Source of the DNA: Candidatus Omnitrophota bacterium
GTDB taxonomy: Bacteria > Omnitrophota > Gorgyraeia > Zapsychrales > Fredricksoniimonadaceae
Reading direction: 5' to 3'
Length of the DNA stretch: 64,000 nucleotides
Assembly: GCA_903908245.1 (NCBI GenBank)
Contig: CAIVRE010000009.1
Location: forward strand, 677 to 64,676
Below are positions 2,406 through 34,525 of the stretch, piece by piece; positions within the stretch are counted from its first letter, which is position 1; each line of letters starts with the position of its first letter. Both the position numbers and the translations under genes were made by a program. The notes beneath the pieces were generated by a model, which was not told the DNA's origin, did no database searches, and saw only the letters and a program-made list of their open reading frames with translations.

Positions 2406-2780
2406 ACTACCTCCCTTGTTTTTGGTTTATTAATTAGCGTAAGTGTAACGATTGATTATTAAGGCAATATTAAGGAAAGATTAAGTGATCATAAACGAAA
2501 CAAATGTTACCGACGATCCATTAACGTAAGGTCGATCCGGATAAGATCAAGATCGGGAGAATAACGATGACCCTCTGTGCGCGAGCGATCTGTCACGCGA
2601 TCAATGGACCGATTAAAATGCCTTGTCGAGACCATCTCGCGTTCGAAAAACCTGTTGATCCTGCTTTTGATCGTTCTGTTTGTCTCCATAAGTGCCTCCT
2701 TTCTGGATTAAGTTTAATCACAAGATATAAAATGCGTGTGAAGGCGGCGTGAAGTGTTTATTAAGGAGAATACGCCCTGT

Positions 2781-2978
2781 TCAGGGTGTAACAAAAAAAG
2801 CCGAAAACTCAACAGGATCCATAAATGGCTGCAGGCTGATGATCTGGATGTCGAACCCCCGGAATAACTGAAGAGCCTGGGATGCGCGCATCGGCGAGAG
2901 ATGATCCAGGTCCCCGGAGACCCCATGATCCGGCTCAAAACGGATCTTGCGGGCCGTATCCGAAAGATCAACGCCGCC
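2781..2978 (-). other. Conserved C-terminal family module (~65 aa) of giant protein A
   Basis: GGVDLSD...L..LQ.F.GF...I.SLQPF is similar to the GGIDL...FNID..L..LQD..GFSPVI..I.P tails of the other three paralogs. Confidence 0.6.
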
Positions 2979-5900
2979 ATTCTCGTTTTGCGCGGCATTA
3001 TCCTGCGATGGATTATTGATCATTGCCAACCGTGAAAGGATCTGCTTGCGCAACGGGGTCATCCTAAAATTCTTTCTGGCGGAGATCTGACCGTATAAAC
3101 TTCTAAGCTGCTTCATATATACTGCGGGGTCAATAAATTCTTTTGCAGCACGCAATACTTCGATCTTCTTTTGGATCGCCTCAACCTCGGTTGCATACTG
3201 AAGATATTGCTGCGCCAGACCCGCGAGGACCGGGTCGCTTTCGGATGCCCGCCCGGAAACTTTCTTCGCAAACTCTTCTGTCCGCACAAAAACCTGACTA
3301 TTGACCTTTCGGATCTGTTTCCTGTGCATTTCAGGGATACTGGCCCCTTTTTCACCGCGTAATCCCTCGGCCATCTTTGTCAACACCCCGATCTCCGTCG
3401 CATATTCAGAATATTCTTGTGTCAGGCCCGAAACGACCGGATCATCCTTTGATCCCTGCCCCGCCGGAAGTTCTTCCTCCTGTTCAGACACCTTCACTTC
3501 CCCTCCCTGCGGCACACTCTCTGCCACAACAATGGGCTCTGCATTAGGGCCCACAACTTCCAATATCGGTCGTTTTTCGGGCAACGGCACCCCCGACAAC
3601 CATGGAAGGGACGTGGGGGATCCCCCCGCACCCAGGCCCAACAACCTGTTAACGGCCTCCACGTCCTGCGTTCCATTAATATGGATCAGCAATGCATCCC
3701 CCGGGTACGGCAGGGCAGCGTTAACCGTAAGGCTGTCCGGCACATTGCGCCTCTTGGCCTGGGAAAGCATTAGATAGAACGACCGGAAAAGATCAAAGGC
3801 GTCTGCCCTCTCACCCTCCTCATAATTATTTTGAATATCTGCCCATTCAGTCCGGATCTCGGGATAATCCTTGCTGATCTCACTTTCAGGTTTTACAAAA
3901 ACATTAAGGATATCATTAGTAAAATTAAGATACTTGAGCTGGCCGGCCAAACCCGTCTTTTTACCCAGTTGATCCAACAGATCGGTCACGGTCGCCACAA
4001 CCCTTGGCCCAAGGATCATAACGCCCGTTAATGCCGGGAACTGCTTCAACGTGTTATTCTTCAGATCATATTTCTCACGCAAATACTGTAATATTTTGCT
4101 GGGATGCACACTTTTCTCTTGATTTTCCTGCAACCGCCCAATATCCAGCTTCTCCAGGATCTCCCTGACGGGAGGCCGTGTCCGGGTAACATCAATATTA
4201 AGAAGGCCAAGGCCCTTTAACGCCTGCCCATCCACCCAATTGCCCAATAATCCGATATCCGTGCCCTCGAATCCCTGCATGGGGCCGAAATAGGCATCGC
4301 GGCTATAGATCAAAATGTGCCCGCCCCGTTCCGCCCCATGGCCAGGCCGCACCGGCTGCGAGGACGACTCGGAACACGGCCCGTTCATACACGCAGAAGT
4401 GCGATAACCGTTGATGACAGACCAGTCCAGGACACTGTCACTGCGCAACTCCCGGCTGCCGGCAAAAACAAACATCACTTTCAGATCACTCCACGGGATA
4501 CCCTTCAGATACGGATACCTGTCTGTAAAATCACTGTCCTGCAATCGGCTTTGAACAAACTGCACGGCCTCCAAATACGCATTCCCGCTTCCCTTTAATT
4601 GCGCAGGCAATACTTCAACCGGGACATCTTCCCTGAAAATACTTCCGCGACGGGAATCAACATACTGCTTAAGGCTGTCAACATCATCCGCATCCGGGTT
4701 CTCGGGAAGGATAACAAGCATGTCAATGCTTCTTTCATTCTCCGGCGCGATCTCCCAGCGCAGCTTCTTCATCCCGTCTTTCACGGCCAACTGAACACTA
4801 TTCTCATCGGAGCTGTTTAGCACACCAGCCGCAACCGATGCCCCCAACCTTCCACGCAGATCGGATACAAGTTTGTCGGTAACGCTCTTCATGGTCTTGC
4901 TCCACGACATTTGCATGATATTCGCATGCGGCACCCAGAAAATACCCATGCTGATCGCAACCGCCGCAATCCCTGCCAGAGATAACCCCATTGTCCCGGT
5001 CACACCGAACAAGACCATCACACCAAAGATCGTAAACCCGAAAGGCACTGAAAACAGCCGCAACCGGCTTATAAAACTGCGCATTTTATGATTATTCCGT
5101 GCCGTCAGCGACCCAAGGGAAGTTAAATTACTGGCATTCTTTATAACAGCCGACAATACACTTTTGCTCTGTTGCTCAATGTCCCCCGGATCCCCATAAA
5201 AAGACGGCATCAGGGTGTTGCCCTGCCGCAACAGGTCTGGCACCTCTTTCTTGATCTGTCGTTCAGACCTGGTCAACTGATAACTGTATAAAAGAGCCCA
5301 CCGCATAAATGGATAGATCTTGAAGCGCTCGGCCCAATGATCGTCCGCAAATTTATAATTCATTACTTTGTCTATGATCCCCCGATACTCCAGGATCCGC
5401 AAATACGTGGTGACATATTCCATCATTCGCGCCAGCGTCTCCGCATCGCCCAATAATTTCTGCTTCTGGTAATCATCCAAAGACGCATCATCCCTTTGAA
5501 GAAGATCATTCATGGCATTGATCGTGTCAATGGCCAGCAGATTAAAATGGCTCAACACCACCTGGTATCGTTCATTGAGGATCGGGTCGGACCCCTGCCT
5601 CAACATCAGTTCGGGAGTATACGGAGTCTTGCGAAGGATATCAAAAGCGCTGTTGAGAATAGCGTTAAGATCACTTAAAACAGCCTGCGGGCCTGGCTGA
5701 ACATGCCTCCATTGGGACACAAGAGTTCTCCAGCTCTGTAACGGCTTGATGACCGCCTCGTCAAGGCCCCTGTTCGGAATGATGACCACATCCGACGACA
5801 ATCCCTGGATATTAACCTTTCCATTCCCGTTGCCGCTTTCTGCAGCAAATTCCTGACGCAGCTCGCGGATCATGTCGCCGGTCTTGGCCATTTTTCTTAG

Positions 5901-8900
5901 GATATCTTTACGGATCTTCTTCGCGCCAACCCAGAAAAGAAGACCGCCGACCAGCGCCAGAACAAGTTGTGACGCCACGGTAAGCCTTGGAAAACCCTGA
6001 TCATTGCCGCTGATAACTCCGGAAAATTTATCCCTCAACCCGACAATGTCCCTGACCATATTGTTCGTTGTTTTATCTCCACGGGCACTTAACTGATCCA
6101 GATATTCATTCACTTCCTGCGGATCATTTGCAGATCCGATCCTTTGCTTTAACTCACGGATCAGGGCCTGTTCACGGGGCGTATAGGCTGCCTGGCCCGA
6201 TAACCAACGCATCTGATGATTTGCCCTCTCGGCGATCAGGTCCAACGCCAGACGCGTTGCTTCCACCTTGATCTGCTGCATACGAGGAGCCTCACCTCGC
6301 GGGTCGCTCGCCGCATGCAGTTCCGGCAGAGTATACGTTCCGAGACGGACGTTCAAAAGCCCTTTCTCACCGACGCGATCCGCCATCTTTTCCATGGCAT
6401 GCCTGTAAACATCATTAGAAGCCGGATTATCAACGGCCTGCACATCCGCACGCAAAATATCGACCCAATGACGGCTGTCCACCAGGTCTAAAAGCCCTTT
6501 ATCATTTGAACCGGCATAAACCTGCAACGCCATCATCCGTCCGAGAGCGGTCGTCATCAAACGGTCCAGGGCCATACCCCTCAGCGATGTCTGTGATCGA
6601 AGGATACGTGCGAGCTCGGGGATATTATTCGTCCGGGCGATCTGCCTCTTCTGATCCTCCAGGTTAAGTCCATTAAAATACGCCAACGACGACGTCCCCT
6701 GCCCCCCTGCCGCCGTAATGCCGCTTAAAAATGGATCCAACCCTGTTGCCGCACGACCATTCAATGAAACGAGTGTTCCCGCGGCGATCTTCGCCCTTTC
6801 GTATAATGCCGGTGCAATAAAATCCTTCATCTCTCTCCATCTTGGAGAAGTCATTAAAAACCGGCGGTCAGCGGAACTCCATTCCCGCAGCATCACCAAG
6901 GCACGAAGGTCCTTGTCAAAAACAACCGACGAAAGATTGGCGAATGGCCCGGGGTAAAAAACATCTTCCATATTGCCCAAAGCCTCGCGCCTCAGGATCT
7001 CGTCATAGATCAGGACGGCCAGGCCTTGCGGTACCGATCCCGCCTGGCCTTTAAGGGTGTTATAAGTTTGCGCCAACTGATCCGATGTCCAGTAATCACT
7101 CTGCAACAAGCGCGACCTGGCAACGGAATCTTCCGGCGCCCAGGAGAGGAAAGCCAACAAGGCACGACGGCCCGCACCTGACTGACCCTGTCCGGCCAAT
7201 TGCCCAACAGCACCGGGATCCTGGATGAGGATATCACTTAACATTTCAAAACCAACCCCTGCGACACCAGGTTTTCGCTGATCAATGGCCTTCTCGATCA
7301 CCTGCGTCAGGAACCGCACATCATGACCGTCCCGGTTGACCGCGAACTGCAAAAGATTTACCACCACTTCAGAGTAGGGCGAATTAAGAACGGCCTGTTC
7401 AATGCCGGACAGAGATCTCCGGTCATTCGAAAGCTCCTCTGTCAGGAGCTTCATCGCCTCTGCCCGGGCCCTGATATTGGAGTCCTGTGTCAGGATCCCT
7501 ACGGCGATATCGATCTGAGCTTGCCGTGGATCTCCGGCTTCCGGGTTACTCATCAAAGCCCATAAATTCGATCCGCTCTTCCCGTCCGAAACCCCCGGTA
7601 CGGGGTAGATCACTGCTCCGGCGGATAATACCCCGGGATCCTGACGCTTTGAATTCAGCCCCTGCTGCCCTGGACCGAAGCCGGACAGATCAAGGGTCAA
7701 TTGCCCTTCTCCAATATCTCCCGCGAACACACTGCCACCGGCAACGGCTGAAACAAGCTGTGGGGCGAACGCAGCCGCTCTTGTCCTCGACGGCCTCACC
7801 AGAGACTGGTCCTGTTTCATTACCTGGATCCGCCCCAAACGGGCCTCAGCCTTGAAATATTCCGCTTTAAGGTCGATCAGCCGTTCAAAGGCCTTTGCCA
7901 TCCGCTGATGCTCGTCGACCAGTTGATCTTTCCTGTAAAGATCCGGCCGTCCGGCTTTCTCCTGCCACGCGTTCAAGGCAGCCTTATGCTCGGCCTCTCC
8001 CTGTTCGATCTGACGGCTCAAGTCCCTGATCTCCGACACGGCTTTAGTGAATGCCTCACCAAGCTCTGCCTTGACGGTATCCAAATGAAGCTGGACCTTC
8101 GCCCTTTCCAAAAGCACGATCTCCTTGCGCGCATCCCTGCCGGAATCAAAGATAGGAAGTTCAAAATGTAGCGCCCCGTTGCCTCCTGTTGTCAAAGAAC
8201 TTGTCCTCATCTTTGACCCGGGAGAAAGATCATACAACGGATTGACCGCCTGCCCCTGGGATCCGGAAATGAAGAGCCCCGTCAGGTCCGCTGTCGGCAA
8301 ATATTCCGACCCCTGCAACTTGATCGTTTCTTCCACGGCAGCCCGGGCAACCTGCGCCCCCCGCAGCCGGTAATTGGGGCTGCCCTCTCCTGTCAATTGG
8401 TGCCGCAAGGACTCCTGTTGATCAGCGGCAATCGCCAGGAATTCTCCATCCCACAATAATTTCGGGGAAATATCCTCCTGCAATCTTTCAGCGGGCCGGC
8501 CCAGCATCTGGTTAAGCTCGATCGTCGATTGTTTCTTCTTGTTCTGCCAGCTCAACAGCTGCGCACGGAATTCGCCGGTCTGCTGGGCCAGAACATTAAG
8601 GTCAGAGGTAGTAGCAAAACCTCCCGCCTCCCTGGCCTTAAGCCCTTTTTGCGCCTCTTCCAGATCGGCAACCAGCGCCTGAAGCTGAACAATATGCTGT
8701 TGGGCACGTCCGATCTCAACGAACAGGGCCGTTGCATCGTTGACCTGTCCGGCAACCGCATCTTCCATATGATGCTGGGCGATCTGGGTCATTTTTAACG
8801 CCAGCGCTTTCTCTTTTAATTTCTTCCCTGAAACGACATCCATGATCTCGCCGGCCACACTAAATACAATCGGAGAAGCCGCGGCAATAGCATTACCGGT

Positions 8901-11900
8901 CGAAACACCGGCCATGACATCGTCAAAAACACCATTAAGCCCGCCGCTGAACGCCAGCTTGCCATTGTTGTTCACAAAAACACCGGCCTGTAAAGCCAGG
9001 CGGGAACTCCCCGACAAACGCTCCGACGCCTTGCTCTTAAGAACATCAATGGTCAACTCACCATTAAGAAAATTGTTCCCTGAGACCCGTGCAACCACCT
9101 CCGTAATATTCAAGTTCGCCGCGGGTTGAACAGGCAACCGCAGGAGAGCCTCCCCCATCTGCACAGGCAAAGGTTTAACCCCGGCCTCAGACGATCGAAA
9201 GACCAGCCGCGGATCCATTTGAGCCAGAACACCGTCTTGCTGTCTTGCAGTATTGATCCGGTCCTGTTCCGACTTCCCCAACGCTGCCAGAATAACGGGG
9301 CTTTCCGCCTCTGTCGGCACAATAATCTGAACCGGCAGGTTGACCCACAAAACGCCGTTCCTGTCTCCATCTACGATGACCGCGACAGCCTTGACAGGCC
9401 CGAGATCGATTTCCCGTCCCACAGGGGCCTCATTGACAGCAGATACCCTTCCCGCCAGGCGTTCACCGGACGGCGCCTGAACAAGAACGGGGTCTCCAAT
9501 TCCGAGCTTCACATCCTTCGGCAACAAGATAGCCGTATTCATATCATTAATATCACCGACCGTAACACGGCCTGTTCTTACCCTCAGAAGTTCGTCCCCT
9601 TTGGAGAATGATGACGAATGTTCCGAAAGGATCCCTGTAACAACGCCGCTTTCCGTCGCCACGACCCGAAGGCGGGATATCTGCCCCTGAAGCGTCAATA
9701 TCTGCGCCCGTAACGACGCCCTTCTGGCCTCTAACTCCGCCTCCTGGCCGCGAAGAGTATGCCGGACACCCGACCCATCCGGCCCGGCTTGCGCAAGCTG
9801 AGCCTGAATGCTGTTAAAAGCCTTGACCGCACCGCGATATTCCTCAAAGTATGATCCCTCCACAACCTCGGCGACTACCTGACCGGCCTCAACCCTGTCC
9901 CCCTCTTTAACAAAAAATTTTACAGGTCCGCGCGCGGGAGCTACCATGACCCGCTCTTCCAGCTTACGGACCATCGCAAGTGTCTGCGCCTGTCCACGAA
10001 CAGCATCAAAATTGGCCTGCGTCTTCAGCGGCGGAAATATTTCAGCCTCCACCTGAACCGTACTGTTCGGCGGGATCATCGAAGAAGTTGTAACAAGGAA
10101 CGAAACGATCGCCCCGGTCTTTTTCGGATTGAGCTGCCAATCAACGCTCACAATATTCTTGACCGGCTGGCCATCGATCCTGAAATTACGGATACGGCCA
10201 AAATATGTCTGAGTCACCGGGATCTCGATATTCAAACGAGCCCTTTGTCCGTAATAGTAACTGACGATATCCACACCCTTGTTCACCGTCATTCCATTAG
10301 CCACCAGAACCTCTTTAATGGAAAGGTCACACGGGGCTTTAACGGCTTCAACAGAACCCTTCTGATCAGCCTGGGCCAACTGCCTGCGAAGCTCATTGAT
10401 CCTTTCTTCCACCGGGGTGAGCTCTGCGACCGTCGCCCCGCCTTGAGCCTGCAGTCCCTTCAAAACCCTGTAGGTCCCTTCTTCGATAACCAACCGCCTG
10501 GCCAATCCTTCCCGTTGCTGCACTCTCTCAGGATCGATCAACGAAAAGATAATGTCTCCCTGCTTGTACTGTCCCTTGCTCTGGTCAAGGCCAAGGACAA
10601 TACCGCCAACCTGGGCCGTCAAACCAGCCTCGTCAAGGACAAGAGGGGTCTTCGCCGAGATCACATACGGCTTCACAAAGGCCATTTCTGCCTCGACCAT
10701 CTTGGCCACTCCGGCATCGGCATACTTTTGATCCGCAACACGGATAGCGGGTGACACCTCGACTGCGGGAGGATATTTGATCGGGACAGCCTTGGAGCTT
10801 GCCTCAGGAGCCGGAACAGCGGCAGGCACGAACAGTTTCTTGACGATCGTTCCATCCGATCGAGGATGAACATCGTGTTTTTCAACATTGTTCCCGCCAG
10901 GAAGGCCATATGACACAAAAGTGCCGGCCGGAAAGATCGTATAAATACCCTTACCTCCCTCATAACCTACCAGCAGCTTCGTGCTTTTCGTCAACGGGAT
11001 AAATCCCTGGATGTCAAGGTCCGCAACGATCGTCTCTTCTCCGGTCTCCCTGTTTATAAGAGTACCCGAAGCAACCGATCGCGTTTTGGTTCCCTGATGA
11101 AGTTCTGCATCCTGTCCTGGCTGCTCCAACACGATCGGTGTCACGCGCTCAACAATGGCGGGATGCGCCGGCCCAGGCAATGGATCATTACCGGTTATTG
11201 TACACCCGGAAGAAGTACACAATCCAGCCGACGCGGCGAGAACCAACAATAACTTTCTTGATACACCCTTTGGAAGCAAAGAGAACTTTAAACGAAAGAA
11301 ATTGCTGACCGGCAGGACTGTTTTACCAGAGAAGAACGAAACAGGCCGGAACTGGATCTTTTGCGCTGCATCTTCGAATGAAAACCCACCCGAAAAATAC
11401 CGCCTGGGCACTGCCTCCTGCTGACCGGGGTCATACTCCTCCCGGATCATGTCGTAAGCGCCCTGCTTGAGCGCCAGCATATACTGTTCATAGATACGCT
11501 GACTTGCGCCCCTGTCTTTTGTATCAATACCCGCTATTTTCTTCCGGCCAGCGTATATTTGATTAACAATATTGCTCTTAAGCTGGCGCTTGAACCAGAT
11601 CGCCAGTATCAATGCGTGATACATTTGACGCAACTGGGCGAACTGCGGGCCATCGTTCACTTCCCGTTCGATCTCCGGGATAATGATCTCGCGTGTGATC
11701 GTAGAGCACAATCCATTGATCTTTTCACGATCGCCGGCGGGTACCGCATTATCGGGGACGATCTTTTTCATGCTCAAATAGTCTTCATCGAGCAAAACTT
11801 TCAGACGGCTCCCGGAAATGAACGCAGCCCCATCTTTCTCATAAACAACAGCACTCTCGGGGATCACCCATACCTTGTTAACGGAATTCAGGGGGACATC

Positions 11901-12449
11901 AACATTGCCATATTGCTGCCTGATCTTTATGTAAACCTGTTCCCAGAATTTCTTTCCCAGTTCGTGCTCGGGATTGGTCATCGAAGCGGCGATCTGTTTC
12001 AGGAAGTAATCCTGTGTCAGCATGTCCTTCCCCGCCGTTGTCGCGCCAAAGACCGGATTGACGATACGGTCCGGCTCGGCCGGAGAAAGGTTGACCCAAA
12101 GGTCCTTTGCGGGAAATGTCAGGAACGTAAGAAAATATTTTATAAGCGACCTGGACTGTTCCTCATCCACTTGCGCATGACTCCCGGCATCAACGACAAA
12201 ATTGATCTTGAACGGGTCATTGGGATCAAGTGAGATGGCTTTGAGATTGGGGATAAAAGACGGGGGTGCTATGGATAATTCCACTCCTGGCGGAGGCGCC
12301 ATCACAATGCTTTGCGCGTGTGCCTCCCGAACACCCAGGATATCAAAAGAATAAACAAGCAATAACGCCCAGATCATACATTGGAACCATGGGCGCCCCC
12401 TTAAGGCAAGTGAAGGATTCAGTTTTCTCTCTCGGGTCAATTGACGCAT
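2781..12449 (-). CDS. Giant secreted multidomain protein, paralog A (3222 aa). N-terminal family module, internal signal/lipobox-like segment, two HlyD-type membrane-fusion modules, TolC-like outer-membrane-factor module, 3 predicted TM helices, family C-terminal module
   Basis: Uninterrupted 9.7 kb ORF. N-terminal module aa ~46-355 is homologous to the three other giant ORFs (DPFKINF, DLWVNLSP, GKKFW, LRQMY, PRRYFSGG). Real start may be the internal Met at ~12377 (MIWALLLVYSF...AHAQ signal peptide). Confidence 0.9.
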   Translation of the reverse strand: MRQLTRERKLNPSLALRGRPWFQCMIWALLLVYSFDILGVREAHAQSIVMAPPPGVELSIAPPSFIPNLKAISLDPNDPFKINFVVDAGSHAQVDEEQSRSLIKYFLTFLTFPAKDLWVNLSPAEPDRIVNPVFGATTAGKDMLTQDYFLKQIAASMTNPEHELGKKFWEQVYIKIRQQYGNVDVPLNSVNKVWVIPESAVVYEKDGAAFISGSRLKVLLDEDYLSMKKIVPDNAVPAGDREKINGLCSTITREIIIPEIEREVNDGPQFAQLRQMYHALILAIWFKRQLKSNIVNQIYAGRKKIAGIDTKDRGASQRIYEQYMLALKQGAYDMIREEYDPGQQEAVPRRYFSGGFSFEDAAQKIQFRPVSFFSGKTVLPVSNFFRLKFSLLPKGVSRKLLLVLAASAGLCTSSGCTITGNDPLPGPAHPAIVERVTPIVLEQPGQDAELHQGTKTRSVASGTLINRETGEETIVADLDIQGFIPLTKSTKLLVGYEGGKGIYTIFPAGTFVSYGLPGGNNVEKHDVHPRSDGTIVKKLFVPAAVPAPEASSKAVPIKYPPAVEVSPAIRVADQKYADAGVAKMVEAEMAFVKPYVISAKTPLVLDEAGLTAQVGGIVLGLDQSKGQYKQGDIIFSLIDPERVQQREGLARRLVIEEGTYRVLKGLQAQGGATVAELTPVEERINELRRQLAQADQKGSVEAVKAPCDLSIKEVLVANGMTVNKGVDIVSYYYGQRARLNIEIPVTQTYFGRIRNFRIDGQPVKNIVSVDWQLNPKKTGAIVSFLVTTSSMIPPNSTVQVEAEIFPPLKTQANFDAVRGQAQTLAMVRKLEERVMVAPARGPVKFFVKEGDRVEAGQVVAEVVEGSYFEEYRGAVKAFNSIQAQLAQAGPDGSGVRHTLRGQEAELEARRASLRAQILTLQGQISRLRVVATESGVVTGILSEHSSSFSKGDELLRVRTGRVTVGDINDMNTAILLPKDVKLGIGDPVLVQAPSGERLAGRVSAVNEAPVGREIDLGPVKAVAVIVDGDRNGVLWVNLPVQIIVPTEAESPVILAALGKSEQDRINTARQQDGVLAQMDPRLVFRSSEAGVKPLPVQMGEALLRLPVQPAANLNITEVVARVSGNNFLNGELTIDVLKSKASERLSGSSRLALQAGVFVNNNGKLAFSGGLNGVFDDVMAGVSTGNAIAAASPIVFSVAGEIMDVVSGKKLKEKALALKMTQIAQHHMEDAVAGQVNDATALFVEIGRAQQHIVQLQALVADLEEAQKGLKAREAGGFATTSDLNVLAQQTGEFRAQLLSWQNKKKQSTIELNQMLGRPAERLQEDISPKLLWDGEFLAIAADQQESLRHQLTGEGSPNYRLRGAQVARAAVEETIKLQGSEYLPTADLTGLFISGSQGQAVNPLYDLSPGSKMRTSSLTTGGNGALHFELPIFDSGRDARKEIVLLERAKVQLHLDTVKAELGEAFTKAVSEIRDLSRQIEQGEAEHKAALNAWQEKAGRPDLYRKDQLVDEHQRMAKAFERLIDLKAEYFKAEARLGRIQVMKQDQSLVRPSRTRAAAFAPQLVSAVAGGSVFAGDIGEGQLTLDLSGFGPGQQGLNSKRQDPGVLSAGAVIYPVPGVSDGKSGSNLWALMSNPEAGDPRQAQIDIAVGILTQDSNIRARAEAMKLLTEELSNDRRSLSGIEQAVLNSPYSEVVVNLLQFAVNRDGHDVRFLTQVIEKAIDQRKPGVAGVGFEMLSDILIQDPGAVGQLAGQGQSGAGRRALLAFLSWAPEDSVARSRLLQSDYWTSDQLAQTYNTLKGQAGSVPQGLAVLIYDEILRREALGNMEDVFYPGPFANLSSVVFDKDLRALVMLREWSSADRRFLMTSPRWREMKDFIAPALYERAKIAAGTLVSLNGRAATGLDPFLSGITAAGGQGTSSLAYFNGLNLEDQKRQIARTNNIPELARILRSQTSLRGMALDRLMTTALGRMMALQVYAGSNDKGLLDLVDSRHWVDILRADVQAVDNPASNDVYRHAMEKMADRVGEKGLLNVRLGTYTLPELHAASDPRGEAPRMQQIKVEATRLALDLIAERANHQMRWLSGQAAYTPREQALIRELKQRIGSANDPQEVNEYLDQLSARGDKTTNNMVRDIVGLRDKFSGVISGNDQGFPRLTVASQLVLALVGGLLFWVGAKKIRKDILRKMAKTGDMIRELRQEFAAESGNGNGKVNIQGLSSDVVIIPNRGLDEAVIKPLQSWRTLVSQWRHVQPGPQAVLSDLNAILNSAFDILRKTPYTPELMLRQGSDPILNERYQVVLSHFNLLAIDTINAMNDLLQRDDASLDDYQKQKLLGDAETLARMMEYVTTYLRILEYRGIIDKVMNYKFADDHWAERFKIYPFMRWALLYSYQLTRSERQIKKEVPDLLRQGNTLMPSFYGDPGDIEQQSKSVLSAVIKNASNLTSLGSLTARNNHKMRSFISRLRLFSVPFGFTIFGVMVLFGVTGTMGLSLAGIAAVAISMGIFWVPHANIMQMSWSKTMKSVTDKLVSDLRGRLGASVAAGVLNSSDENSVQLAVKDGMKKLRWEIAPENERSIDMLVILPENPDADDVDSLKQYVDSRRGSIFREDVPVEVLPAQLKGSGNAYLEAVQFVQSRLQDSDFTDRYPYLKGIPWSDLKVMFVFAGSRELRSDSVLDWSVINGYRTSACMNGPCSESSSQPVRPGHGAERGGHILIYSRDAYFGPMQGFEGTDIGLLGNWVDGQALKGLGLLNIDVTRTRPPVREILEKLDIGRLQENQEKSVHPSKILQYLREKYDLKNNTLKQFPALTGVMILGPRVVATVTDLLDQLGKKTGLAGQLKYLNFTNDILNVFVKPESEISKDYPEIRTEWADIQNNYEEGERADAFDLFRSFYLMLSQAKRRNVPDSLTVNAALPYPGDALLIHINGTQDVEAVNRLLGLGAGGSPTSLPWLSGVPLPEKRPILEVVGPNAEPIVVAESVPQGGEVKVSEQEEELPAGQGSKDDPVVSGLTQEYSEYATEIGVLTKMAEGLRGEKGASIPEMHRKQIRKVNSQVFVRTEEFAKKVSGRASESDPVLAGLAQQYLQYATEVEAIQKKIEVLRAAKEFIDPAVYMKQLRSLYGQISARKNFRMTPLRKQILSRLAMINNPSQDNAAQNENGGVDLSDTARKIRFEPDHGVSGDLDHLSPMRASQALQLFRGFDIQIISLQPFMDPVEFSAFFVTP
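11384..12311 (-). other. Conserved N-terminal family module of giant protein A
   Basis: Aligns by eye with the N-termini of ORFs 15127-17514, 19215-22448 and 50492-55183. Confidence 0.8.
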
Positions 12450-13953: not shown

Positions 13954-15117
13954 ATGCACGAGAATGGAAAATTTACCATGAGCGATACAAGACAGAAAAT
14001 CCTCATCGTCGCGGGCGAAGAGTCCGGCGACATGCGCGCGGCGCCGTTAGTTCGCGCCATTAAGCATTATGCCCCCGGCACACAATTCATCGGCATTGCG
14101 GGAGACCGCTGCCGCCAGGAAGGTGTTGACACCTTTACCGACATCCGCGACCTGGCTGTGATCGGTTTCGTCGAAGTCATCAAGAATTTCTCAAGACTGA
14201 AGAAAGTCTTTGACCTCACTGTTCAAAAAGCCCGGGAAGAAAAACCCGACCTCGCTATCCTGGTGGACTACCCCGGCTTCAACCTCCGCCTGGCCGCTGA
14301 ACTCAAGAAACTCAATATCAAGGTCGTTTATTATGTAAGCCCCCAGGTCTGGGCGTGGAAAGCGTCGCGCGTCAAGATCATCAAGAAAGTCGTAGACCGG
14401 ATGATGGTGCTTTTTCCTTTTGAAAAAGACTTTTACGCCAAACATCAATATACTGCCGACTTCGTTGGGCATCCTCTGCTCGACGAAGTTCACGCCAGCA
14501 AGGATGCCGCCTCGTTCAAGGCATCCCTTGGACTGGACCCGAAATATACCGTCATCGGACTATTGCCCGGTTCAAGAAAAAATGAGATCGCTCATCTTCT
14601 GCCCATCATGTACGCAGCGGCCAATATCCTCAAAAAAGAAAACCCCCGCTTGCAGTTTGTCCTTTTACAAGCCAAAACGATCAGTGACGAACTGCTGGCT
14701 AAATACGCCCAAAAGGCCCCCGTTAGCCTCAAGATCACCAAAGAATATTATAACGGGCTAAATATTACCGACTTTTGTATCGTAGCCTCCGGAACAGCCA
14801 CGCTTGAAACCGGCATCATGGGCAAACCCATGGCCGTTGTTTACAAAACGGCATGGCTCACCTCTGTGATCGTACGGATCGTGATCCGGATCAAGGATGT
14901 ATCGCTGGTCAATATTGTGGCGGGAAAAAAGATCGTGGAGGAGTTGATCCAGGAGAACGCGACGCCGGCCAGGATCGTTAAAGCCATGCGCGGCCTCATC
15001 AATGACCAGGCTAAAACTCAAACCATGCGCAAAGAACTCTCCGCATTAAGGGCGAAACTGGGGAATCCCGGCGCAAGCCAGCGCGCGGCGAAAGTCGTGG
15101 TGGAAGAGCTGTCTTGA
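13954..15117 (+). CDS. lpxB: Lipid-A-disaccharide synthase
   Basis: 387 aa; ILIVAGEESGDMRAAPL N-terminal motif and overall GT19 pattern. Confidence 0.9.
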   Translation: MHENGKFTMSDTRQKILIVAGEESGDMRAAPLVRAIKHYAPGTQFIGIAGDRCRQEGVDTFTDIRDLAVIGFVEVIKNFSRLKKVFDLTVQKAREEKPDLAILVDYPGFNLRLAAELKKLNIKVVYYVSPQVWAWKASRVKIIKKVVDRMMVLFPFEKDFYAKHQYTADFVGHPLLDEVHASKDAASFKASLGLDPKYTVIGLLPGSRKNEIAHLLPIMYAAANILKKENPRLQFVLLQAKTISDELLAKYAQKAPVSLKITKEYYNGLNITDFCIVASGTATLETGIMGKPMAVVYKTAWLTSVIVRIVIRIKDVSLVNIVAGKKIVEELIQENATPARIVKAMRGLINDQAKTQTMRKELSALRAKLGNPGASQRAAKVVVEELS

Positions 15118-15126
15118 TACGGGGAT

Positions 15127-15318
15127 TTACTTCTGCTCGTTCAACCCTAAAAACAACCTCAGATCACTCATCGGCTCAATATTGATGATAACCGGCGAAA
15201 AACCCAGAGTGTCCTGAAGTTCCTGTAACTTCACCTGATCAATATTGAACTGCAGCCCATCACCCGAACCTCGTGTTTCCACGCTCAAACGTTCCGCCGT
15301 CAGGTCAATACCACCTTT
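15127..15318 (-). other. Conserved C-terminal family module of paralog B
   Basis: KGGIDLTAERLSVETRGSGDGLQFNIDQVKLQELQDTLGFSPVIINIEPMSDLRLFLG. Confidence 0.7.
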
Positions 15319-19214: not shown

Positions 19215-19418
19215 TTACAGACCGCCTGCGGCGTTCGGCTGAATTCCCAGGAACTGTTGTAAACTTTCCGCCGGAAGTATCGACATGATCACCGGGGAAA
19301 ATCCTTCCGCGTCCTGCAGTCGCTGAAGCATGACCGGATCGATATTAAATGTAATCTCCCCGCCCTGATTGCGCACCACCAACCCCAGCTTGTCCGCGTT
19401 AAGATCGATACCACCTTT
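19215..19418 (-). other. Conserved C-terminal family module of paralog C
   Basis: KGGIDLNADKLGLVVRNQGGEITFNIDPVMLQRLQDAEGFSPVIMSILPAESLQQFLG. Confidence 0.7.
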
Positions 19419-22400
19419 GGTGTCTCCTGTTGGCAAATGCCCGACAGGCACCGCACTACCAGCCGAAGACAACAAACTATCAGGGACTTGATAATCAGAC
19501 CGCAAAAGACCCATTGCTTTAAACACATCACAATAAAAACCAACATCCTTATCTGACATGCCGTCAAACATAAAATTCCTTCTTCCCGACCCATAGCCCT
19601 GGAACAACCAAGCCATCACCTCTTTACCCAACCGCTCATCAGACCCGATGGTGCGATTACTGAGAATATCGGCAAGAACATCCCCGTATGTCCCGCTGAT
19701 CCTGTTCTTTAATACCTCCCATTTACCTGCACTCTGAAGTCGTTGTAGCATGTTAAGAACGATTTCCGGGGACTTTTGCTGATAAGCATGCAATAACTCA
19801 TGCAGGATCGACGCCTTTGTCTCTTGTCGAATATATTCTGCAGCGACACGATACGGATCCCTGTTCATCGAACGCGCCTCGAGAGCGATCTTGTCAACAA
19901 CATCGCCCCTCTTATTGATCAACGCAGCGCCTATGGCCATATTCAACATCTGTTCTTTGCTTTTGAAAATAGGGCGGAAACAAATCCCCGTCGCAGGATC
20001 AAAGAAAAAGAACGGGGTTGCGCTCATGTTCAATTGCATGAATGCCCCGCCATTCCCGACAAACGGCGCTTTCTGAAAACTCTCAGGATCTTTGATATTG
20101 ATGCCCAACTTCTCCAACAGATCCCCGAGCACAGGATTGGCAAGCGCCTCTCCACGGGCCTGACGAAGATATTCCTCCTGCCCCTTCTCGCCGAACACAT
20201 CCAAATGCCCTTCAGGGATCTTGTCATTACTGGCAATATAACCGGTCAAGCCATTGCCTTTACTTGCAGGAACTTTTATTGAATTTCCATTAAGTCCATC
20301 GAGAACAGATAAGACGCTCCCCAATTCTTTTGTGATACCCGGGCCCAATTCTCCTCTGTTGTTCGGTGCAAGCGGCGCTCCATCCCGACTAAAAGAACCG
20401 ATCCCCGCAGACTCTCCGGTCCAGCTCACCGCCACTGGCGATCCAAATGCAAGATAATTCTGCAGTCCCGTCATCCCTATAAAAGCCGTACCTTGAGGAG
20501 CCGCCTTCAAACGCTCTCTCAGACCATTCACGGCCGATTTATACTCTTCAATTGTTTGTTGGGCCTCCTTGATCTGCGCATTAATGAACTCAATGAAAGC
20601 CCCCATTCTCGCTTGAACAACATACGGGCGTCCGTCGGGTGTTCGATCGTATTGAAACCCATTCAATAACTGTCCCGTACGTCCCAGGGCTTCCGGACTG
20701 ATCCCGGACTCTAAATAACCTTTGGCCCAATCAAGGAATTTTTGAGACTGAAGCAGATCAACACTCATACTCGACATTTGATGCAAATACCCCCTCACAT
20801 TCCCAACGGGGTCTGCGAGCTCTTCATCAAAAATAACACGCACGGACTTTCCGTTCGATGAAGTGAACCTGAACCCGCCTTGAGTGCTCATCTGCCCATT
20901 GATATCCGCCGATCTTGGCACAAGAATGACCCGCCCACCCATCCGGCGATCAACCTGAAAAGTCACCACAAAGTCACCATCAAAGATCACCCCTGAGAAA
21001 CCATTATTCAAGATCAACTTTGCCTTGTGTCCCGTATATTGAAGCATGTTATCGCCTAAAGTTGCAACAGACAGGGCCCCATCCCTATCCAACTCAACCC
21101 GGTTAAGATACTGATCCCATCCCTCGGATGCTCTGCCATTGGCCCGGAGAACTCCTTCATTAAGACCCCCCTGAAACACGACCCTGTCGCGTGCTATTTC
21201 CTGGCTCCCGGCAACAGCAGCACTTCCAGGATCTTTGGCCGCCTGGACCACCCCAGCAATGCCCGCATTGGCATTATTAAATGTGGTAAGCGTCATCGAG
21301 ACGACCAACATCCCGAGGAATGCCGCCCGCGAGAACCCCCCGGTCATTTGCGCCGGGCTTGCCGTCACATTCAACACCGGCGACATCGCGAAGTTCACTC
21401 CACCCGAGAAATACTTCCGCGGGATCATCTCGTCGGCGTAAACATCCCGTTCTTCTTTGATGTAATTGAACGCACCCTTCTTGAACGCCTCAACGTAACG
21501 ACCCCAGATCTTTTCCGACTCCTTCGGGTCATCAATGTTGACCCCCGCGACCTTTTTCTGGTCGACGTAAACCTTGCTAAGAATGCTCGCCTTCACCTTT
21601 TTCTTATACCAGGCCGCCAGGATCAGCGATTGATACACCTGGCGCAACCGCGTAAAGTTCCTGCCTTCATTGACCTCTTTCTCAAGCAAAGGAAGGACGA
21701 TCTCCCGGATAACATTCTTGGTGAGTTCCTGCGTTTCCGGCACAACACCATTGCCTGAAAGCTCTGGCGCCTTCACCACCGCATTATCCAGCGCAACATA
21801 ATCGCTCTCCAGCATGACCTTGAGCCTGCTGGCAACAACAAAAGCCTTATCCCCGTTCTCAAAGACCTCGGCCTCGGCAGGAACGATCCAGACTTTATTA
21901 AAAGTGTCCACGGGAATGTCCGTTGTGCCGTACTGCTCGGCCGCTCTGCGATAAACCTCGGCCCAGAATTTTTTGCCTGCTTCACTCTCGGGATAAATGG
22001 CGGATGCGGTCACCTGCTTGAGCAAATAGTCCTGCGCCAGAAGATCGCGCCCCATCTCGCTCCGCCCGAATTCATCAGGGATGATGCGGTCTTTCTCGTA
22101 AGGCGAAAGGTTCACCCACAGATCCGTCTCGGGAACGGTCAGGCTGGCCAGAAAATATTTGATCAACCGGTTCGATTCGTCTTTTAATTCAGCACCAGGA
22201 TACACGGAATCACCTTTATCCAGAAGGAACTCGAAGCGGAACGGATCGTCGGGATGGACCTTGATTCCTTTAAGGACAGGCGGATTAAACGTTGAGCTTA
22301 ACTCAACCCGACTACCCGGTGCCGGTAAATACAAGGCACCCTGAGCATATGCATCGGGAACGATCTGGGCAAGGACCAATAAAAAAGAAAGGGCGCTGAC

Positions 22401-22448
22401 TGCGCCCTTTCGAAGAAAGCTGTAAATGCTTCCCGTCTTATTCATCAT
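19215..22448 (-). CDS. Giant-family secreted protein, paralog C (1077 aa): N-terminal family module, hydrophobic segment, beta-rich region, HELLHxxQQ zincin-like motif, C-terminal family module
   Basis: Signal peptide (..VPDAYAQG); N module aa 37-350; HELLH encoded at 19788-19802 (checked at nucleotide level); C module aa 1010-1077. Confidence 0.9.
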   Translation of the reverse strand: MMNKTGSIYSFLRKGAVSALSFLLVLAQIVPDAYAQGALYLPAPGSRVELSSTFNPPVLKGIKVHPDDPFRFEFLLDKGDSVYPGAELKDESNRLIKYFLASLTVPETDLWVNLSPYEKDRIIPDEFGRSEMGRDLLAQDYLLKQVTASAIYPESEAGKKFWAEVYRRAAEQYGTTDIPVDTFNKVWIVPAEAEVFENGDKAFVVASRLKVMLESDYVALDNAVVKAPELSGNGVVPETQELTKNVIREIVLPLLEKEVNEGRNFTRLRQVYQSLILAAWYKKKVKASILSKVYVDQKKVAGVNIDDPKESEKIWGRYVEAFKKGAFNYIKEERDVYADEMIPRKYFSGGVNFAMSPVLNVTASPAQMTGGFSRAAFLGMLVVSMTLTTFNNANAGIAGVVQAAKDPGSAAVAGSQEIARDRVVFQGGLNEGVLRANGRASEGWDQYLNRVELDRDGALSVATLGDNMLQYTGHKAKLILNNGFSGVIFDGDFVVTFQVDRRMGGRVILVPRSADINGQMSTQGGFRFTSSNGKSVRVIFDEELADPVGNVRGYLHQMSSMSVDLLQSQKFLDWAKGYLESGISPEALGRTGQLLNGFQYDRTPDGRPYVVQARMGAFIEFINAQIKEAQQTIEEYKSAVNGLRERLKAAPQGTAFIGMTGLQNYLAFGSPVAVSWTGESAGIGSFSRDGAPLAPNNRGELGPGITKELGSVLSVLDGLNGNSIKVPASKGNGLTGYIASNDKIPEGHLDVFGEKGQEEYLRQARGEALANPVLGDLLEKLGINIKDPESFQKAPFVGNGGAFMQLNMSATPFFFFDPATGICFRPIFKSKEQMLNMAIGAALINKRGDVVDKIALEARSMNRDPYRVAAEYIRQETKASILHELLHAYQQKSPEIVLNMLQRLQSAGKWEVLKNRISGTYGDVLADILSNRTIGSDERLGKEVMAWLFQGYGSGRRNFMFDGMSDKDVGFYCDVFKAMGLLRSDYQVPDSLLSSAGSAVPVGHLPTGDTKGGIDLNADKLGLVVRNQGGEITFNIDPVMLQRLQDAEGFSPVIMSILPAESLQQFLGIQPNAAGGL
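21398..22337 (-). other. Conserved N-terminal family module of paralog C
   Basis: See paralog B; near-identical motif set. Confidence 0.85.
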
Positions 22449-24983: not shown

Positions 24984-25379
24984 TTACAAACCCAACACAC
25001 GCTCTATTTCCCTGCGCTCTTTTTTTGTCGGGCGGCCTTCCCCTTTAGCGCGACGCGGCACCCATCCGCCCCGAATGAGTACAAGTTTATTCTTTTCCTC
25101 CTCGGGTGTTATATCCTCACAACAATCTTTTGCAACCTGAGCACCTACACGCTTATCGATGCATTTCAAAACCCGATACTGCCAGCAAACCCCCTCTTTG
25201 CGGACAACAATGACCTGCCCTACCATGACATCCCGTGAGGGCTTAACTTGCTGCCCATTAATACTGACCTTATGCCTTTTGCACAGATCCGTTGCCATTA
25301 ACCGCGTCTTACAGATCCGCACAGACCATAACCATTTGTCGATACGAACAACAACTGGAATAAGAGAGGTCGCGATCAA
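24984..25379 (-). CDS. S4-domain RNA-binding protein (Hsp15/YlmH-like)
   Basis: IDKWLWSVRICKTR..A..L....V.ING..VKPSRDV..G S4 signature; start may lie a few codons inside the ORF. Confidence 0.7.
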   Translation of the reverse strand: MIATSLIPVVVRIDKWLWSVRICKTRLMATDLCKRHKVSINGQQVKPSRDVMVGQVIVVRKEGVCWQYRVLKCIDKRVGAQVAKDCCEDITPEEEKNKLVLIRGGWVPRRAKGEGRPTKKERREIERVLGL

Positions 25380-30121: not shown

Positions 30122-30128
30122 AACATTA

Positions 30129-34497: not shown

Positions 34498-34525
34498 CAC
34501 GATCCTCCCGACAGCCCCTGATCGG

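What the first reader, a model, noticed from the sequence alone, without database searches (positions are those of the whole stretch)
11198..11261. Internal signal-peptide/lipobox-like segment directly after the N-module of paralog A (fusion fossil?)
At aa ~396-417 paralog A reads SRKLLLVLAASAGLCTSSGC. This is a basic n-region, a hydrophobic core and Cys residues resembling a degenerate lipobox, as found at the start of AcrA-type adaptor lipoproteins. The MFP-like modules follow it. Paralog C has a comparable hydrophobic stretch (RAAFLGMLVVSMTLTTF) at the same junction. This suggests the family N-module was grafted in front of pre-existing secreted or lipoprotein precursors. It also hints that the N-module could be proteolytically released.
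Basis: inference. Interest (0 to 1): 0.55.

Follow-up and report, generated by a model that had tools for sequence, protein, structure and literature searches.

The report
Internal signal-peptide-like boundary element
A short stretch inside a 3,222-residue Omnitrophota-type envelope protein looks like a secretion signal; the stretch is kept at the same module boundary in most relatives but its two cysteines are not, so it is a conserved internal export-signal-like element rather than a conserved lipoprotein site.

Summary
Residues 397-417 (window 11199-11261, minus strand) of a 3,222-aa ORF read SRKLLLVLAASAGLCTSSGCT: basic residues, an 11-residue hydrophobic core, then a small/polar tail with Cys411 and Cys416.

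It is not chance. About 35 of 39 orthologous giant proteins carry a basic-plus-hydrophobic segment at this junction, after a conserved ..VSL(I/V)P(R/K)G(M/I/V)S(R/K)K motif. Its hydrophobicity and charge profile match these proteins' own N-terminal signal peptides, not their true membrane helices.

The cysteines are not conserved (1 of 35). Orthologues have Ala-x-Ala-type tails instead. Two non-orthologous family members share the G(L/A)CT(S/A)SGC motif. Three distant giants with a different N-terminal module have an internal Tat-plus-lipobox signal after that module.

Downstream modules are of periplasmic type (efflux-adaptor-like, TolC-like), and the N-module has its own signal peptide. A plain single-pass helix therefore fits poorly.

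Best reading: this is the cargo's own export signal, made internal by fusion and kept under selection, with a lineage-specific lipobox-like variant here. Cleavage, lipidation and N-module release are untested. Similar Sec- or Tat-like segments recur at other module boundaries, which I found described nowhere in the library searched.

The parts
2781..12449 (-). Giant ORF 'paralog A', 3,222 aa, that contains the finding
   Evidence: A public metagenome scaffold carries the same gene called from Met25. Orthologue N-termini support the upstream start.
12315..12449 (-). N-terminal signal peptide (aa 1-45): basic n-region, hydrophobic core, AHA|Q
   Evidence: Of 115 N-terminally complete family members, 108 have such a signal and 77 have [AVSG]xA[QE] after it.
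11280..12314 (-). Family N-module (aa 46-390) plus the extension specific to this orthologous group; the invariant YFSGG lies at 11385-11399
   Evidence: invariant columns; AlphaFold pLDDT mostly 75-94 for residues 50-300; no Pfam or NCBIfam match; no PDB fold match.
11184..11279 (-). Junction element aa 391-422, LLPKGVSRK-LLLVLAASAGL-CTSSGCTITGND. n-region 11253-11273; hydrophobic core 11220-11252; Cys411 11217-11219; Cys416 11202-11204
   Evidence: Predicted helix 398-414, pLDDT about 74. Conserved in position in orthologues.
10635..11198 (-). Poorly conserved region aa 418-605 between the junction and the adaptor-like module
   Evidence: Orthologue homology starts only at about aa 540-610. 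No Pfam match. Low model confidence. Orthologue P0125 has a weak PG_binding_3 match in the equivalent region.
10161..10634 (-). Efflux-adaptor (MFP)-like module, aa 606-763
   Evidence: TIGR01730 at E 3.4e-9. HlyD_D23 and HlyD_3 score above the Pfam cut-off in orthologues. A profile gives adaptors as the top PDB hits: 4l8j 6e-7, MacA, EmrA, HlyD.
7836..8372 (-). TolC/OEP-like module, aa 1360-1538
   Evidence: PF02321 at 25.9 bits against a cut-off of 22; 48 bits in orthologue P0125.
7719..7799 (-). Second, weaker internal signal-like segment, aa 1551-1577, VRPSRTRAAAFAPQLVSAVAGGSVFAG
   Evidence: Several orthologues have clear Sec- or Tat-like signals at this boundary (SRRTFL.., SRRKFF..).
5922..5984 (-). 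First strong membrane helix, aa 2156-2176, followed by KKIRKDILRK
   Evidence: 19-window 2.07; charge on the C-side, which implies that the preceding region is outside the cytoplasm.
4914..5057 (-). Hydrophobic hairpin, aa 2465-2512
2784..2978 (-). Family C-module, aa 3158-3222 (GGVDL...F.I...P)
   Evidence: Shared by all four paralogs in the window.
21264..21344 (-). Comparable junction segment in paralog C (TGGFSRAAFLGMLVVSMTLTTFNNANA)

Best explanation
Residues 391-422 form a signal-peptide-like unit: a basic PKGVSRK stretch, an 11-residue hydrophobic core, and a small/polar tail. The unit marks the boundary between the family's exported N-module and a periplasm-type cargo made of efflux-adaptor-like and TolC-like modules. 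It is a conserved part of this giant protein. Most likely it is the export signal, or signal-anchor, that the adaptor/TolC-like protein owned before a signal peptide plus N-module was fused in front of it. It has been kept since then as a second, internal start-transfer or tether signal.

Its conserved design is of the signal peptidase I kind, with an Ala-x-Ala-type tail. The window's copy has switched to a lipobox-like tail (..SSGC), a variant also seen in other members of the family.

In the finished protein I expect it does not cross the membrane as an ordinary stop-transfer helix. Either it follows the N-module through SecYEG and sits at the periplasmic face as a hydrophobic tether, or it acts as a cleavable signal once it is separated from the N-module.

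Shown: its presence, its positional conservation, its signal-like profile, the periplasm-type modules downstream, and the non-conservation of Cys. Inferred: its origin by fusion, its present use, and any cleavage or lipidation.
For: Conservation. A HMMER scan of 1.84 billion representatives with aa 391-1590 found about 25 giant orthologues. Together with 9 metagenome loci, about 35 of 39 junctions carry the motif ..VSL[IV]P[RK]G[MIV]S[RK]K followed by a 12-17-residue hydrophobic stretch.

Profile. Junction segments have a median 19-window hydropathy of 1.47, with net charge +2.2 on the N-side and -0.1 on the C-side. The same proteins' N-terminal signals score 1.64, +2.5 and -0.8. Their first strong membrane helix scores 2.12, with +2.4 on the C-side.

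Tail. Strict AxA occurs in the tail window in 13 of 35 orthologues, against 11% of control windows.

Downstream modules. They are of periplasmic type: TIGR01730, OEP, HlyD_D23 and HlyD_3, and PDB adaptors as the top profile hits. The next strong helix carries its positive cluster on the far side.

Related cases. The same kind of element sits in front of adaptor/TolC-like regions in distant giants that have a different N-terminal module, there as Tat plus lipobox in 3 of 3. In P0130 an inserted region is followed by a new signal-like segment just before the cargo. Elsewhere in the N-module family, about 18% of members carry a hydrophobic segment right after the N-module, the clearest being Sec-, Tat- or lipobox-like signals.
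Against: No free-standing homologue of the cargo that starts with this signal was found, so the fusion origin is inferred rather than shown.

The N-module has its own signal peptide. An N-in/C-out signal behind it therefore has no obvious way to act unless the N-module is detached, and no protease or cleavage site is demonstrated.

Four orthologues (P0002, P0004, P0147, and P0130 at the original site) have lost the hydrophobic stretch but keep the cargo. The element is therefore dispensable in some lineages.

No dedicated predictor (SignalP, LipoP, DeepTMHMM) could be run. The signal-like call rests on hydropathy, charge and motif statistics that I computed myself.
Confidence: 0.5

Rival explanations
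1. It is a working lipoprotein signal: Lgt lipidates Cys416 (or Cys411), signal peptidase II cuts in front of it, the N-module is released, and the adaptor-like part becomes an AcrA-type lipoprotein.
For: C416 fits the permissive PROSITE lipobox pattern, as do the second Cys of P0006 and P0017, which share G[LA]CT[SA]SGC. Three distant giants have a canonical or near-canonical internal Tat-plus-lipobox signal at the analogous place (LVSGC, TIGC, LFGC). Adaptor proteins are often lipoproteins (established knowledge).
Against: Cys is present in 1 of 35 orthologous junctions. The strict lipobox is not met: position -3 is Ser for C416 and position -1 is Leu for C411. The segment is 390 residues from the N-terminus and follows a module that has its own export signal, so the cut site would face the wrong side unless the N-module stays in, or is removed in, the cytoplasm. 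There is no internal start codon or ribosome-binding site. The window contains no lgt or lspA and no bona fide lipoprotein for comparison.
Confidence: 0.12
2. It is a plain stop-transfer membrane helix. The N-module stays outside, tethered to the inner membrane, and everything after residue 420 is cytoplasmic.
For: There is an uncharged stretch of 22 residues, and a helix is predicted at 398-414. N-terminal signal, outside domain, helix, then cytoplasmic domains is a common sensor-like layout. Counting the junction segment and the three strong hydrophobic segments at 2156-2512, but not the weak peak at 1188-1206, gives paralog A an even number of segments between the N- and C-modules (one search lists five at its threshold).
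Against: Positive charge lies on the N-side in essentially all orthologues, which contradicts the positive-inside rule for this orientation. The 19-window hydropathy (median 1.47) is well below that of the proteins' real helices (2.12). The downstream modules are of periplasmic or outer-membrane type. The next strong helix has its charges placed as if the preceding part were outside. In many family members the junction segment is the only hydrophobic segment, which would put the C-module on the opposite side from its place in the 50 of 88 members that have none.
Confidence: 0.15
3. It is a decaying relic, or a chance hydrophobic patch, with no present function.
For: Four orthologues have lost it. 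The sequence of the core is not conserved. Hydrophobic 12-residue stretches occur in 9.6% of control windows.
Against: It is retained at the same position, with the same charge asymmetry and tail composition, in about 35 of 39 orthologues that have diverged to 25-46% identity. A conserved basic motif precedes it.
Confidence: 0.1
4. Polyprotein or sequential targeting. These multi-module proteins are cut at linker motifs, and each piece then uses its own Sec, Tat or lipoprotein signal. The junction element would be the true N-terminal signal of the adaptor/TolC-like piece.
For: Signal-like segments recur at a second boundary, including Tat consensus motifs kept in several orthologues. Internal Tat-plus-lipobox signals are conserved in 3 of 3 distant giants. 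A [DNS]x[AS]M motif is six-fold enriched in the 120 residues after the N-module and precedes many of these segments. Others have suggested proteolytic processing of Omnitrophota giants (bioRxiv 10.1101/2023.11.21.568195).
Against: No protease, cleavage product or proteomic evidence exists. The N-terminal signal would engage Sec before any cytoplasmic cut. Orthologues that lack the segment still carry the cargo. The linker motif is not an in-frame ribosome-binding site plus start codon.
Confidence: 0.12

Closest known systems
Bacterial lipoprotein signal peptides (Lgt/LspA substrates, e.g. AcrA-type adaptors; PROSITE PS51257)
   Same: A basic n-region, a short hydrophobic core, and small residues before a Cys. 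C416 fits the permissive pattern. An adaptor-like module lies downstream.
   Different: The segment is internal (residue about 400) rather than N-terminal, and it follows an exported module. The strict lipobox is not met. Cys is absent from all other orthologues.
Sec-type (signal peptidase I) signal peptides, and the N-terminal signal-anchors of HlyD/EmrA/MacA-type adaptors
   Same: n-h-c organisation and charge asymmetry. Ala-x-Ala-type tails in many orthologues. Hydropathy like that of the proteins' own N-terminal signals. Located upstream of adaptor-like domains.
   Different: The location is internal. About 190 non-conserved residues separate it from the adaptor-like module. Cleavage is unproven.
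Internal Tat signals of dual Sec/Tat-targeted membrane proteins (Keller 2012, PMC3471235; Tooke 2017, PMC5449189)
   Same: A precedent for a functional internal export signal of moderate hydrophobicity. Tat-consensus internal segments occur at other boundaries and in relatives.
   Different: Those signals follow an even number of membrane helices, so the twin-arginine motif is cytoplasmic. Here only one N-terminal signal precedes. The window's segment has S-R-K, not a twin-arginine motif.
Bipartite organelle presequences (thylakoid-lumen and mitochondrial intermembrane-space proteins); from general knowledge, not tested here
   Same: Two targeting signals in series, the second being signal-peptide-like with an AxA site.
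   Different: In those cases the first signal is a short peptide removed by a known protease. Here a folded module of about 350 residues lies between the two signals, and no protease is known.
Topologically 'frustrated' hydrophobic segments (Gafvelin and von Heijne 1994; from general knowledge)
   Same: A moderately hydrophobic segment whose flanking charges conflict with the orientation that its neighbours impose on it. Such a segment is expected not to span the membrane.
   Different: Those were engineered constructs. Here the conflict is natural and conserved.

Membership tests
Lipoprotein signal peptide (SPase II) | Located at the N-terminus of the precursor (Cys within about the first 15-35 residues) | tested here: not met
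   The Cys residues are at positions 411 and 416 of 3,222. There is no internal ATG/GTG and no ribosome-binding site; the only nearby TTG (L391) has no SD-like sequence.
Lipoprotein signal peptide (SPase II) | Lipobox [LVI][ASTVI][GAS]C | tested here: inconclusive
   The strict form is not met (AGLC, SSGC). The permissive PROSITE-type pattern is met for C416 only.
Lipoprotein signal peptide (SPase II) | Invariant Cys conserved among orthologues | tested here: not met
   Cys is present in 1 of 35 orthologous junctions. It is shared only with the non-orthologous P0006 and P0017.
Lipoprotein signal peptide (SPase II) | Diacylglyceryl modification and globomycin-sensitive cleavage | not testable with these tools
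   This needs an experiment. lgt and lspA are not in the window.
Sec-type signal peptide (SPase I) | Positive n-region, hydrophobic core of 7-15 residues, polar c-region with small residues at -3 and -1 | tested here: met
   Charge is +2.2 on the N-side and -0.1 on the C-side, and the median core is 15 residues. AxA occurs in 13 of 35 junctions against 11% of controls. The window copy has small residues (SSG, SGC) but no AxA.
Sec-type signal peptide (SPase I) | N-terminal position and actual cleavage | tested here: not met
   The position is internal. Cleavage cannot be tested here.
Stop-transfer transmembrane helix | About 18 or more hydrophobic residues, and flanking charges that obey the positive-inside rule for the imposed orientation | tested here: not met
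   The 19-window hydropathy is 1.76 here and has a median of 1.47 in orthologues, against 2.12 for the true helices. Positive charges are on the side that would face the periplasm.
Periplasmic efflux adaptor (MFP: HlyD/AcrA/MacA/EmrA) for the downstream module | Lipoyl, barrel-sandwich and hairpin domains recognised by family models | tested here: inconclusive
   In A itself TIGR01730 scores 36 bits against a cut-off of 94.9, and the Pfam HlyD models are below their cut-offs. Orthologues pass the Pfam cut-offs for HlyD_D23 and HlyD_3. A profile gives PDB adaptors as the top hits. This is domain-level similarity, not membership of a transporter family.
TolC/OEP outer-membrane factor for the downstream module | A match to PF02321 above the gathering score | tested here: met
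   25.9 bits against 22 in A; 48.1 and 33.3 bits in P0125 and P0136, but 19.4 bits (below the cut-off of 22) in P0133. Only one repeat-like stretch matches. TIGR01844 is far below its cut-off.
Dual Sec/Tat-targeted protein with an internal Tat signal | An internal S/T-R-R-x-F-L motif preceded by an even number of membrane helices | tested here: not met
   The window segment has S-R-K-L-L-L, and only one hydrophobic segment precedes it.

The most novel reading that the evidence does not exclude
Signal-like segments (Sec, Tat or lipoprotein type) are a systematic feature of module boundaries in Omnitrophota multi-module and giant proteins. They would work because the proteins are processed at linker motifs into separately targeted pieces: a bacterial polyprotein with one export signal per module. 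A wilder version has the second signals unmasked only after delivery into a prey cell, where they hijack its Sec, Tat or Lol machinery. The many 'transmembrane helices' and the discarded internal signal-peptide calls reported for these giants (bioRxiv 10.64898/2026.06.07.730766) would then partly be such boundary signals.
Probability: 0.12. Interest if true: 0.85.

Novelty: new variant of a known kind. Interest (0 to 1): 0.55.

Why it matters
Omnitrophota are ultra-small, probably host-dependent bacteria known for very long proteins. How those proteins are exported, arranged in the envelope or processed is unknown.

A conserved signal-peptide-like element sits behind an already exported N-terminal module. 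Similar Sec-like, Tat-like and Tat-plus-lipobox elements occur at other module boundaries and in related giants. This gives a concrete handle for experiments: reporter fusions, globomycin or palmitate assays, and N-terminal proteomics. These could decide whether the proteins are single trans-envelope polypeptides, polyproteins, or something else.

It also cautions that counts of 'TM helices' in such giants may include export-signal-like boundary segments. Finally, it exposes a large family, unmatched in Pfam or NCBIfam, in which a fixed N-module and C-module flank very diverse cargo.

Tried and rejected
- Word-index homologue search with aa 380-1250 found nothing. The full HMMER scan was needed.
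- A profile of the three CTSSGC junctions found nothing in the protein collection: 11 candidates, none scored. In GTDB genomes, 28 stretches matched the pattern and none was confirmed. How widespread the Cys variant is remains unknown.
- Internal translation start at the junction: rejected. There is no ATG or GTG, and the only TTG lacks an SD-like sequence. The internal Met codons of P0006 and P0017 have only weak SD-like context.
- The idea that the [DNS]x[AS]M linker motif is a fossil ribosome-binding site plus start codon: rejected at the DNA level.
- The 'fossil start Met' in P0006, P0017 and P0095: ambiguous, because the Met can be part of that linker motif.
- Correlation between a junction segment and the Pfam type of the cargo: the sample is too small (3 of 27 with Pfam domains against 18 of 91 without), so no claim is made.
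- No Pfam or PDB sequence match for aa 418-605, 1590-2160, 2180-2465 or 2510-3222. The sidedness of the C-terminal third rests on flanking charges only.
- A second structure prediction of the adaptor region was not attempted. The tool description admits only window sequences and homologous-protein hits, and most orthologues came from the representatives search.
Full report
WHAT IS THERE. The finding lies in a 3,222-aa ORF on the minus strand (2781-12449). Window 11199-11261 encodes aa 397-417, SRKLLLVLAASAGLCTSSGCT. The full unit is aa 391-422: LLPKGVSRK, then LLLVLAASAGL, then CTSSGCTITGND. It has three basic residues, an 11-residue hydrophobic core, and a small/polar tail with Cys411 and Cys416. 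No positive charge follows until R431. The same gene occurs on a public 98-kb metagenome scaffold.

THE FAMILY. Four ORFs in the window share two modules: 2781-12449, 15127-17514, 19215-22448 and 50492-55183. The first is an N-module of about 350 residues. It opens with a classical signal peptide and ends in an invariant YFSGG. The second is a C-module of about 65 residues (GGIDL...F.I...P). Neither matches Pfam or NCBIfam. The predicted N-module fold (pLDDT mostly 75-94 for residues 50-300) has no PDB match. A homologue search returned 568 proteins; every organism name shown among the 120 listed is Omnitrophota-type, apart from two labelled Pacearchaeota. In them the N-module is followed by very diverse cargo: kinases, methyltransferases, radical SAM, receiver domains, WD40, ankyrin, a subtilase and more. 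Of 115 N-terminally complete members, 108 have an N-terminal basic-plus-hydrophobic signal, and 77 have [AVSG]xA[QE] behind it.

IS IT MORE THAN CHANCE? A HMMER scan of 1.84 billion representatives with aa 391-1590 found about 25 giant orthologues of 2,400-3,467 aa, 25-46% identical over the cargo. Homology starts at about aa 540-610; aa 418-540 is not conserved. Nearly all orthologues carry, after YFSGG, a conserved extension FSFxDAA...F(T/S)VSL(I/V)P(R/K)G(M/I/V)S(R/K)K. A 12-17-residue hydrophobic stretch and a Pro/Gly/Ser/Ala-rich tail follow. A metagenome scan added nine more junctions of the same design. In total about 35 of 39 junctions have the segment. P0002, P0004, P0147 and P0130 (at the original site) have lost it. 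The base rate for such hydrophobic stretches in 120-residue control windows of family proteins is 9.6%.

SIGNAL PEPTIDE OR MEMBRANE HELIX? I compared three classes of segment within the same orthologues.
- Junction segments: median 12-window hydropathy 2.23, 19-window 1.47, net charge +2.2 before and -0.1 after.
- Their N-terminal signal peptides: 2.27, 1.64, +2.5 and -0.8.
- Their first strong membrane helix: 2.64, 2.12, and +2.4 after the helix.
The junction element therefore has the profile of a signal peptide, not of these proteins' membrane helices. A strict A-x-A occurs in the tail window of 13 of 35 junctions, for example QANAQ, HANAA, VNAQA and ASAHA. The control rate is 11%. No dedicated predictor was available, so this call rests on my own statistics.

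THE CYSTEINES. Among 35 orthologous junctions only the window's protein has Cys. The closest orthologue locus is 64% identical in the N-module and 50-56% in the adaptor part, and is frameshifted in its MAG. It reads KKILLGLLAAAPFIASAHATAF.

The Cys motif is still not random. P0006 and P0017 have different cargo, yet they carry ..LLGLCTSSGCTF.. and ..YLGACTASGCSS.. after their N-modules. GLCTSSGCT is identical to the window's sequence. The permissive PROSITE-type lipobox pattern matches the second Cys in all three. Three distant giants have a different N-terminal module (P0178 residues 1-596 resemble P0168 38-610). They all carry an internal Tat-plus-lipobox signal after that module: SRRRFLEFLLAGAAAGTIGC, SRRDFFAIAAGFGLTSLFGC and NRRRFLALAGMALAGLVSGC. 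Switching between type I and lipoprotein-type signals among relatives is what real export signals do; this last point is established knowledge, and using it here is inference.

WHAT SURROUNDS IT.
- TIGR01730 matches aa 606-763 at E 3.4e-9.
- Orthologues pass the Pfam cut-offs for HlyD_D23 and HlyD_3; two of the three tested also pass for OEP, up to 48 bits.
- A 15-sequence profile gives periplasmic adaptors as the top PDB hits: 4l8j 6e-7, MacA/MexA, EmrA, HlyD.
- A itself passes the OEP cut-off at aa 1360-1538.
- One orthologue has a weak peptidoglycan-binding match between the junction and the adaptor module.
The first strong helix (aa 2156-2176) is followed by KKIRKDILRK. The hairpin at 2465-2512 is preceded by KMRSFISRLR. 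By the positive-inside rule, aa 420-2155 lie outside the cytoplasm.

THE TOPOLOGY PROBLEM. The N-module is exported by its own signal, and the part after the junction is of periplasmic type. The junction segment therefore cannot be a single membrane crossing without placing adaptor- and TolC-like modules in the cytoplasm and inverting its own charge bias. As an N-in/C-out signal it has no obvious way to act behind an exported module.

Family-wide parity points the same way. Of 88 complete proteins with both modules, 50 have no hydrophobic segment in between. Many of those with a junction segment have it as their only one, which would flip the C-module to the other side.

Two readings remain. 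The segment may ride through SecYEG and act as a hydrophobic tether or a redundant signal. Or it may work as a signal after the N-module is detached. I cannot separate them. The loss of the segment in four orthologues that keep the cargo favours the first. The conserved signal features and the conserved Tat and lipobox motifs in relatives favour the second.

A WIDER PATTERN. About 18% of N-module proteins (21 of 118) have a hydrophobic segment within 120 residues of YFSGG. Most of these have a basic n-region and an A-x-A|Q-type tail, for example ..SVAQPVFAQS and ..NLAYAQE. Others have a Tat consensus: TRRDFLRAAG.., TRRQFLKAAG.. and SRRRFLGML...

Inside the giant orthologues a second boundary, after the TolC-like module, again carries signal-like segments. 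Some are Tat-like (SRRTFL.., SRRKFF..). The window's copy is a weaker version at aa 1551-1577. A short motif [DNS]x[AS]M is six-fold enriched in the 120 residues after the N-module and often precedes these segments. It is not an in-frame ribosome-binding site plus start codon.

In P0130 an insertion of about 330 residues separates the N-module from a new signal-like segment placed just before the cargo. This suggests that the signal travels with the cargo.

LITERATURE. Two papers on Omnitrophota giant proteins report many predicted membrane helices. One treats internal signal-peptide calls as chunking artefacts. Neither mentions boundary signals or this N/C-module family in the passages my term searches returned. 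Functional internal Tat signals are known, but they follow an even number of helices (PMC3471235, PMC5449189).

VERDICT.
- The element is signal-peptide-like, sits at the fusion boundary, and plausibly descends from the cargo's own export signal.
- It is a conserved element rather than a fossil.
- The lipobox is a lineage-specific variant, not a conserved site.
- Release of the N-module is untested.
Confidence in the best explanation is about 0.5. The rivals are a working lipobox (0.12), a plain membrane helix (0.15), a functionless relic (0.10) and polyprotein processing (0.12).

Noticed in passing
window 2781-12449, 15127-17514, 19215-22448, 50492-55183 (all minus strand): Four paralogs share a signal peptide plus an N-module of about 350 aa (ending in an invariant YFSGG) and a C-module of about 65 aa (GGIDL...F.I...P). 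These flank unrelated cargo: adaptor/TolC-like, kinase-like, unknown, and weakly GNAT-like. There are 568 or more database relatives with very diverse, mostly cytoplasm-type enzyme cargo. Neither module matches Pfam or NCBIfam, and the N-module has no PDB fold match.
   Followed up: partly
about 120 residues after YFSGG in family members; in the window, paralog B aa 352-366, C aa 352-370, D aa 348-354 and 1008-1014: A short motif [DNS]x[AS]M (DRAM, DSAM, DQAM..) is enriched: 6.7 per 1,000 aa just after the N-module, against 1.1 elsewhere and 0.3 inside the N-module. It recurs before internal signal-like segments. SSSP[IVL] behaves similarly in other lineages. It could be a linker or a processing motif. 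It is not an SD-plus-ATG relic at the DNA level.
   Followed up: partly
window 7719-7799 (aa 1551-1577 of paralog A) and the same boundary in P0134, P0137, P0145, P0148, P0153, P0155, P0174: A second internal signal-like segment follows the TolC-like module. It is degenerate in the window copy. Several orthologues have clear Sec- or Tat-like signals there (SRRTFL.., SRRKFF.., ..PLAAQ, ..AVFAQN).
   Followed up: partly
P0168 aa 590-613, P0175 aa 473-496, P0178 aa 576-599: Three distant giant proteins with a different N-terminal module all have an internal twin-arginine motif, a hydrophobic core and a lipobox Cys directly after that module and before TolC/adaptor-like regions.
   Followed up: partly
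window 12315-12449 (aa 1-45) and orthologue N-termini: The N-terminal signals of this orthologous group share an unusual conserved pattern, W-F-R-x-x-C at the start of the hydrophobic core and G-x-D-x-x-R..AYAQ after it. This is more sequence conservation than a plain cleaved signal normally shows. It also supports Met1 (12449) rather than the database start at Met25 (12377).
   Followed up: partly
window 11385-11399: YFSGG is invariant in all 56 aligned N-modules and lies at the very end of the fold. An invariant Phe-Ser at a module end recalls autoproteolytic sites such as the HFS motif of Nup98. This is a recollection only, with no structural or sequence test made.
   Followed up: no
L002 10001-12353 (GCA_015233705.1, JADFXE010000020.1): The closest orthologue locus is split over three reading frames, annotated as a 466-aa 'partial' protein plus small ORFs. 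This is either MAG sequencing error or a pseudogene.
   Followed up: partly
aa 1178-1206 of paralog A (window about 8832-8918) and fragments P0156, P0163, P0167: A conserved, moderately hydrophobic motif, SGNAIGAA.P(I/V)V.Q.AG..IDVVSGK, lies inside the cargo. Its role is unknown.
   Followed up: no
window 28274-34629 (minus strand): A BatA/BatD/VWA/TPR/DUF58 gene row (the aerotolerance-operon type) lies between the paralogs. Other neighbours include a PPK2 gene at 25376-26188, and a PBP-like binding-protein gene (186-1055) and a Porin_5 gene (1131-2405) just downstream of paralog A.
   Followed up: no
whole window: Nearly all ORFs of at least 250 aa that match a known family or homologue lie on the minus strand (LpxB-like 13954-15117 is an exception). 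GC skew is negative in every 4-kb block (-0.10 to -0.21). This fits a single replication arm with strong gene-strand bias.
   Followed up: no
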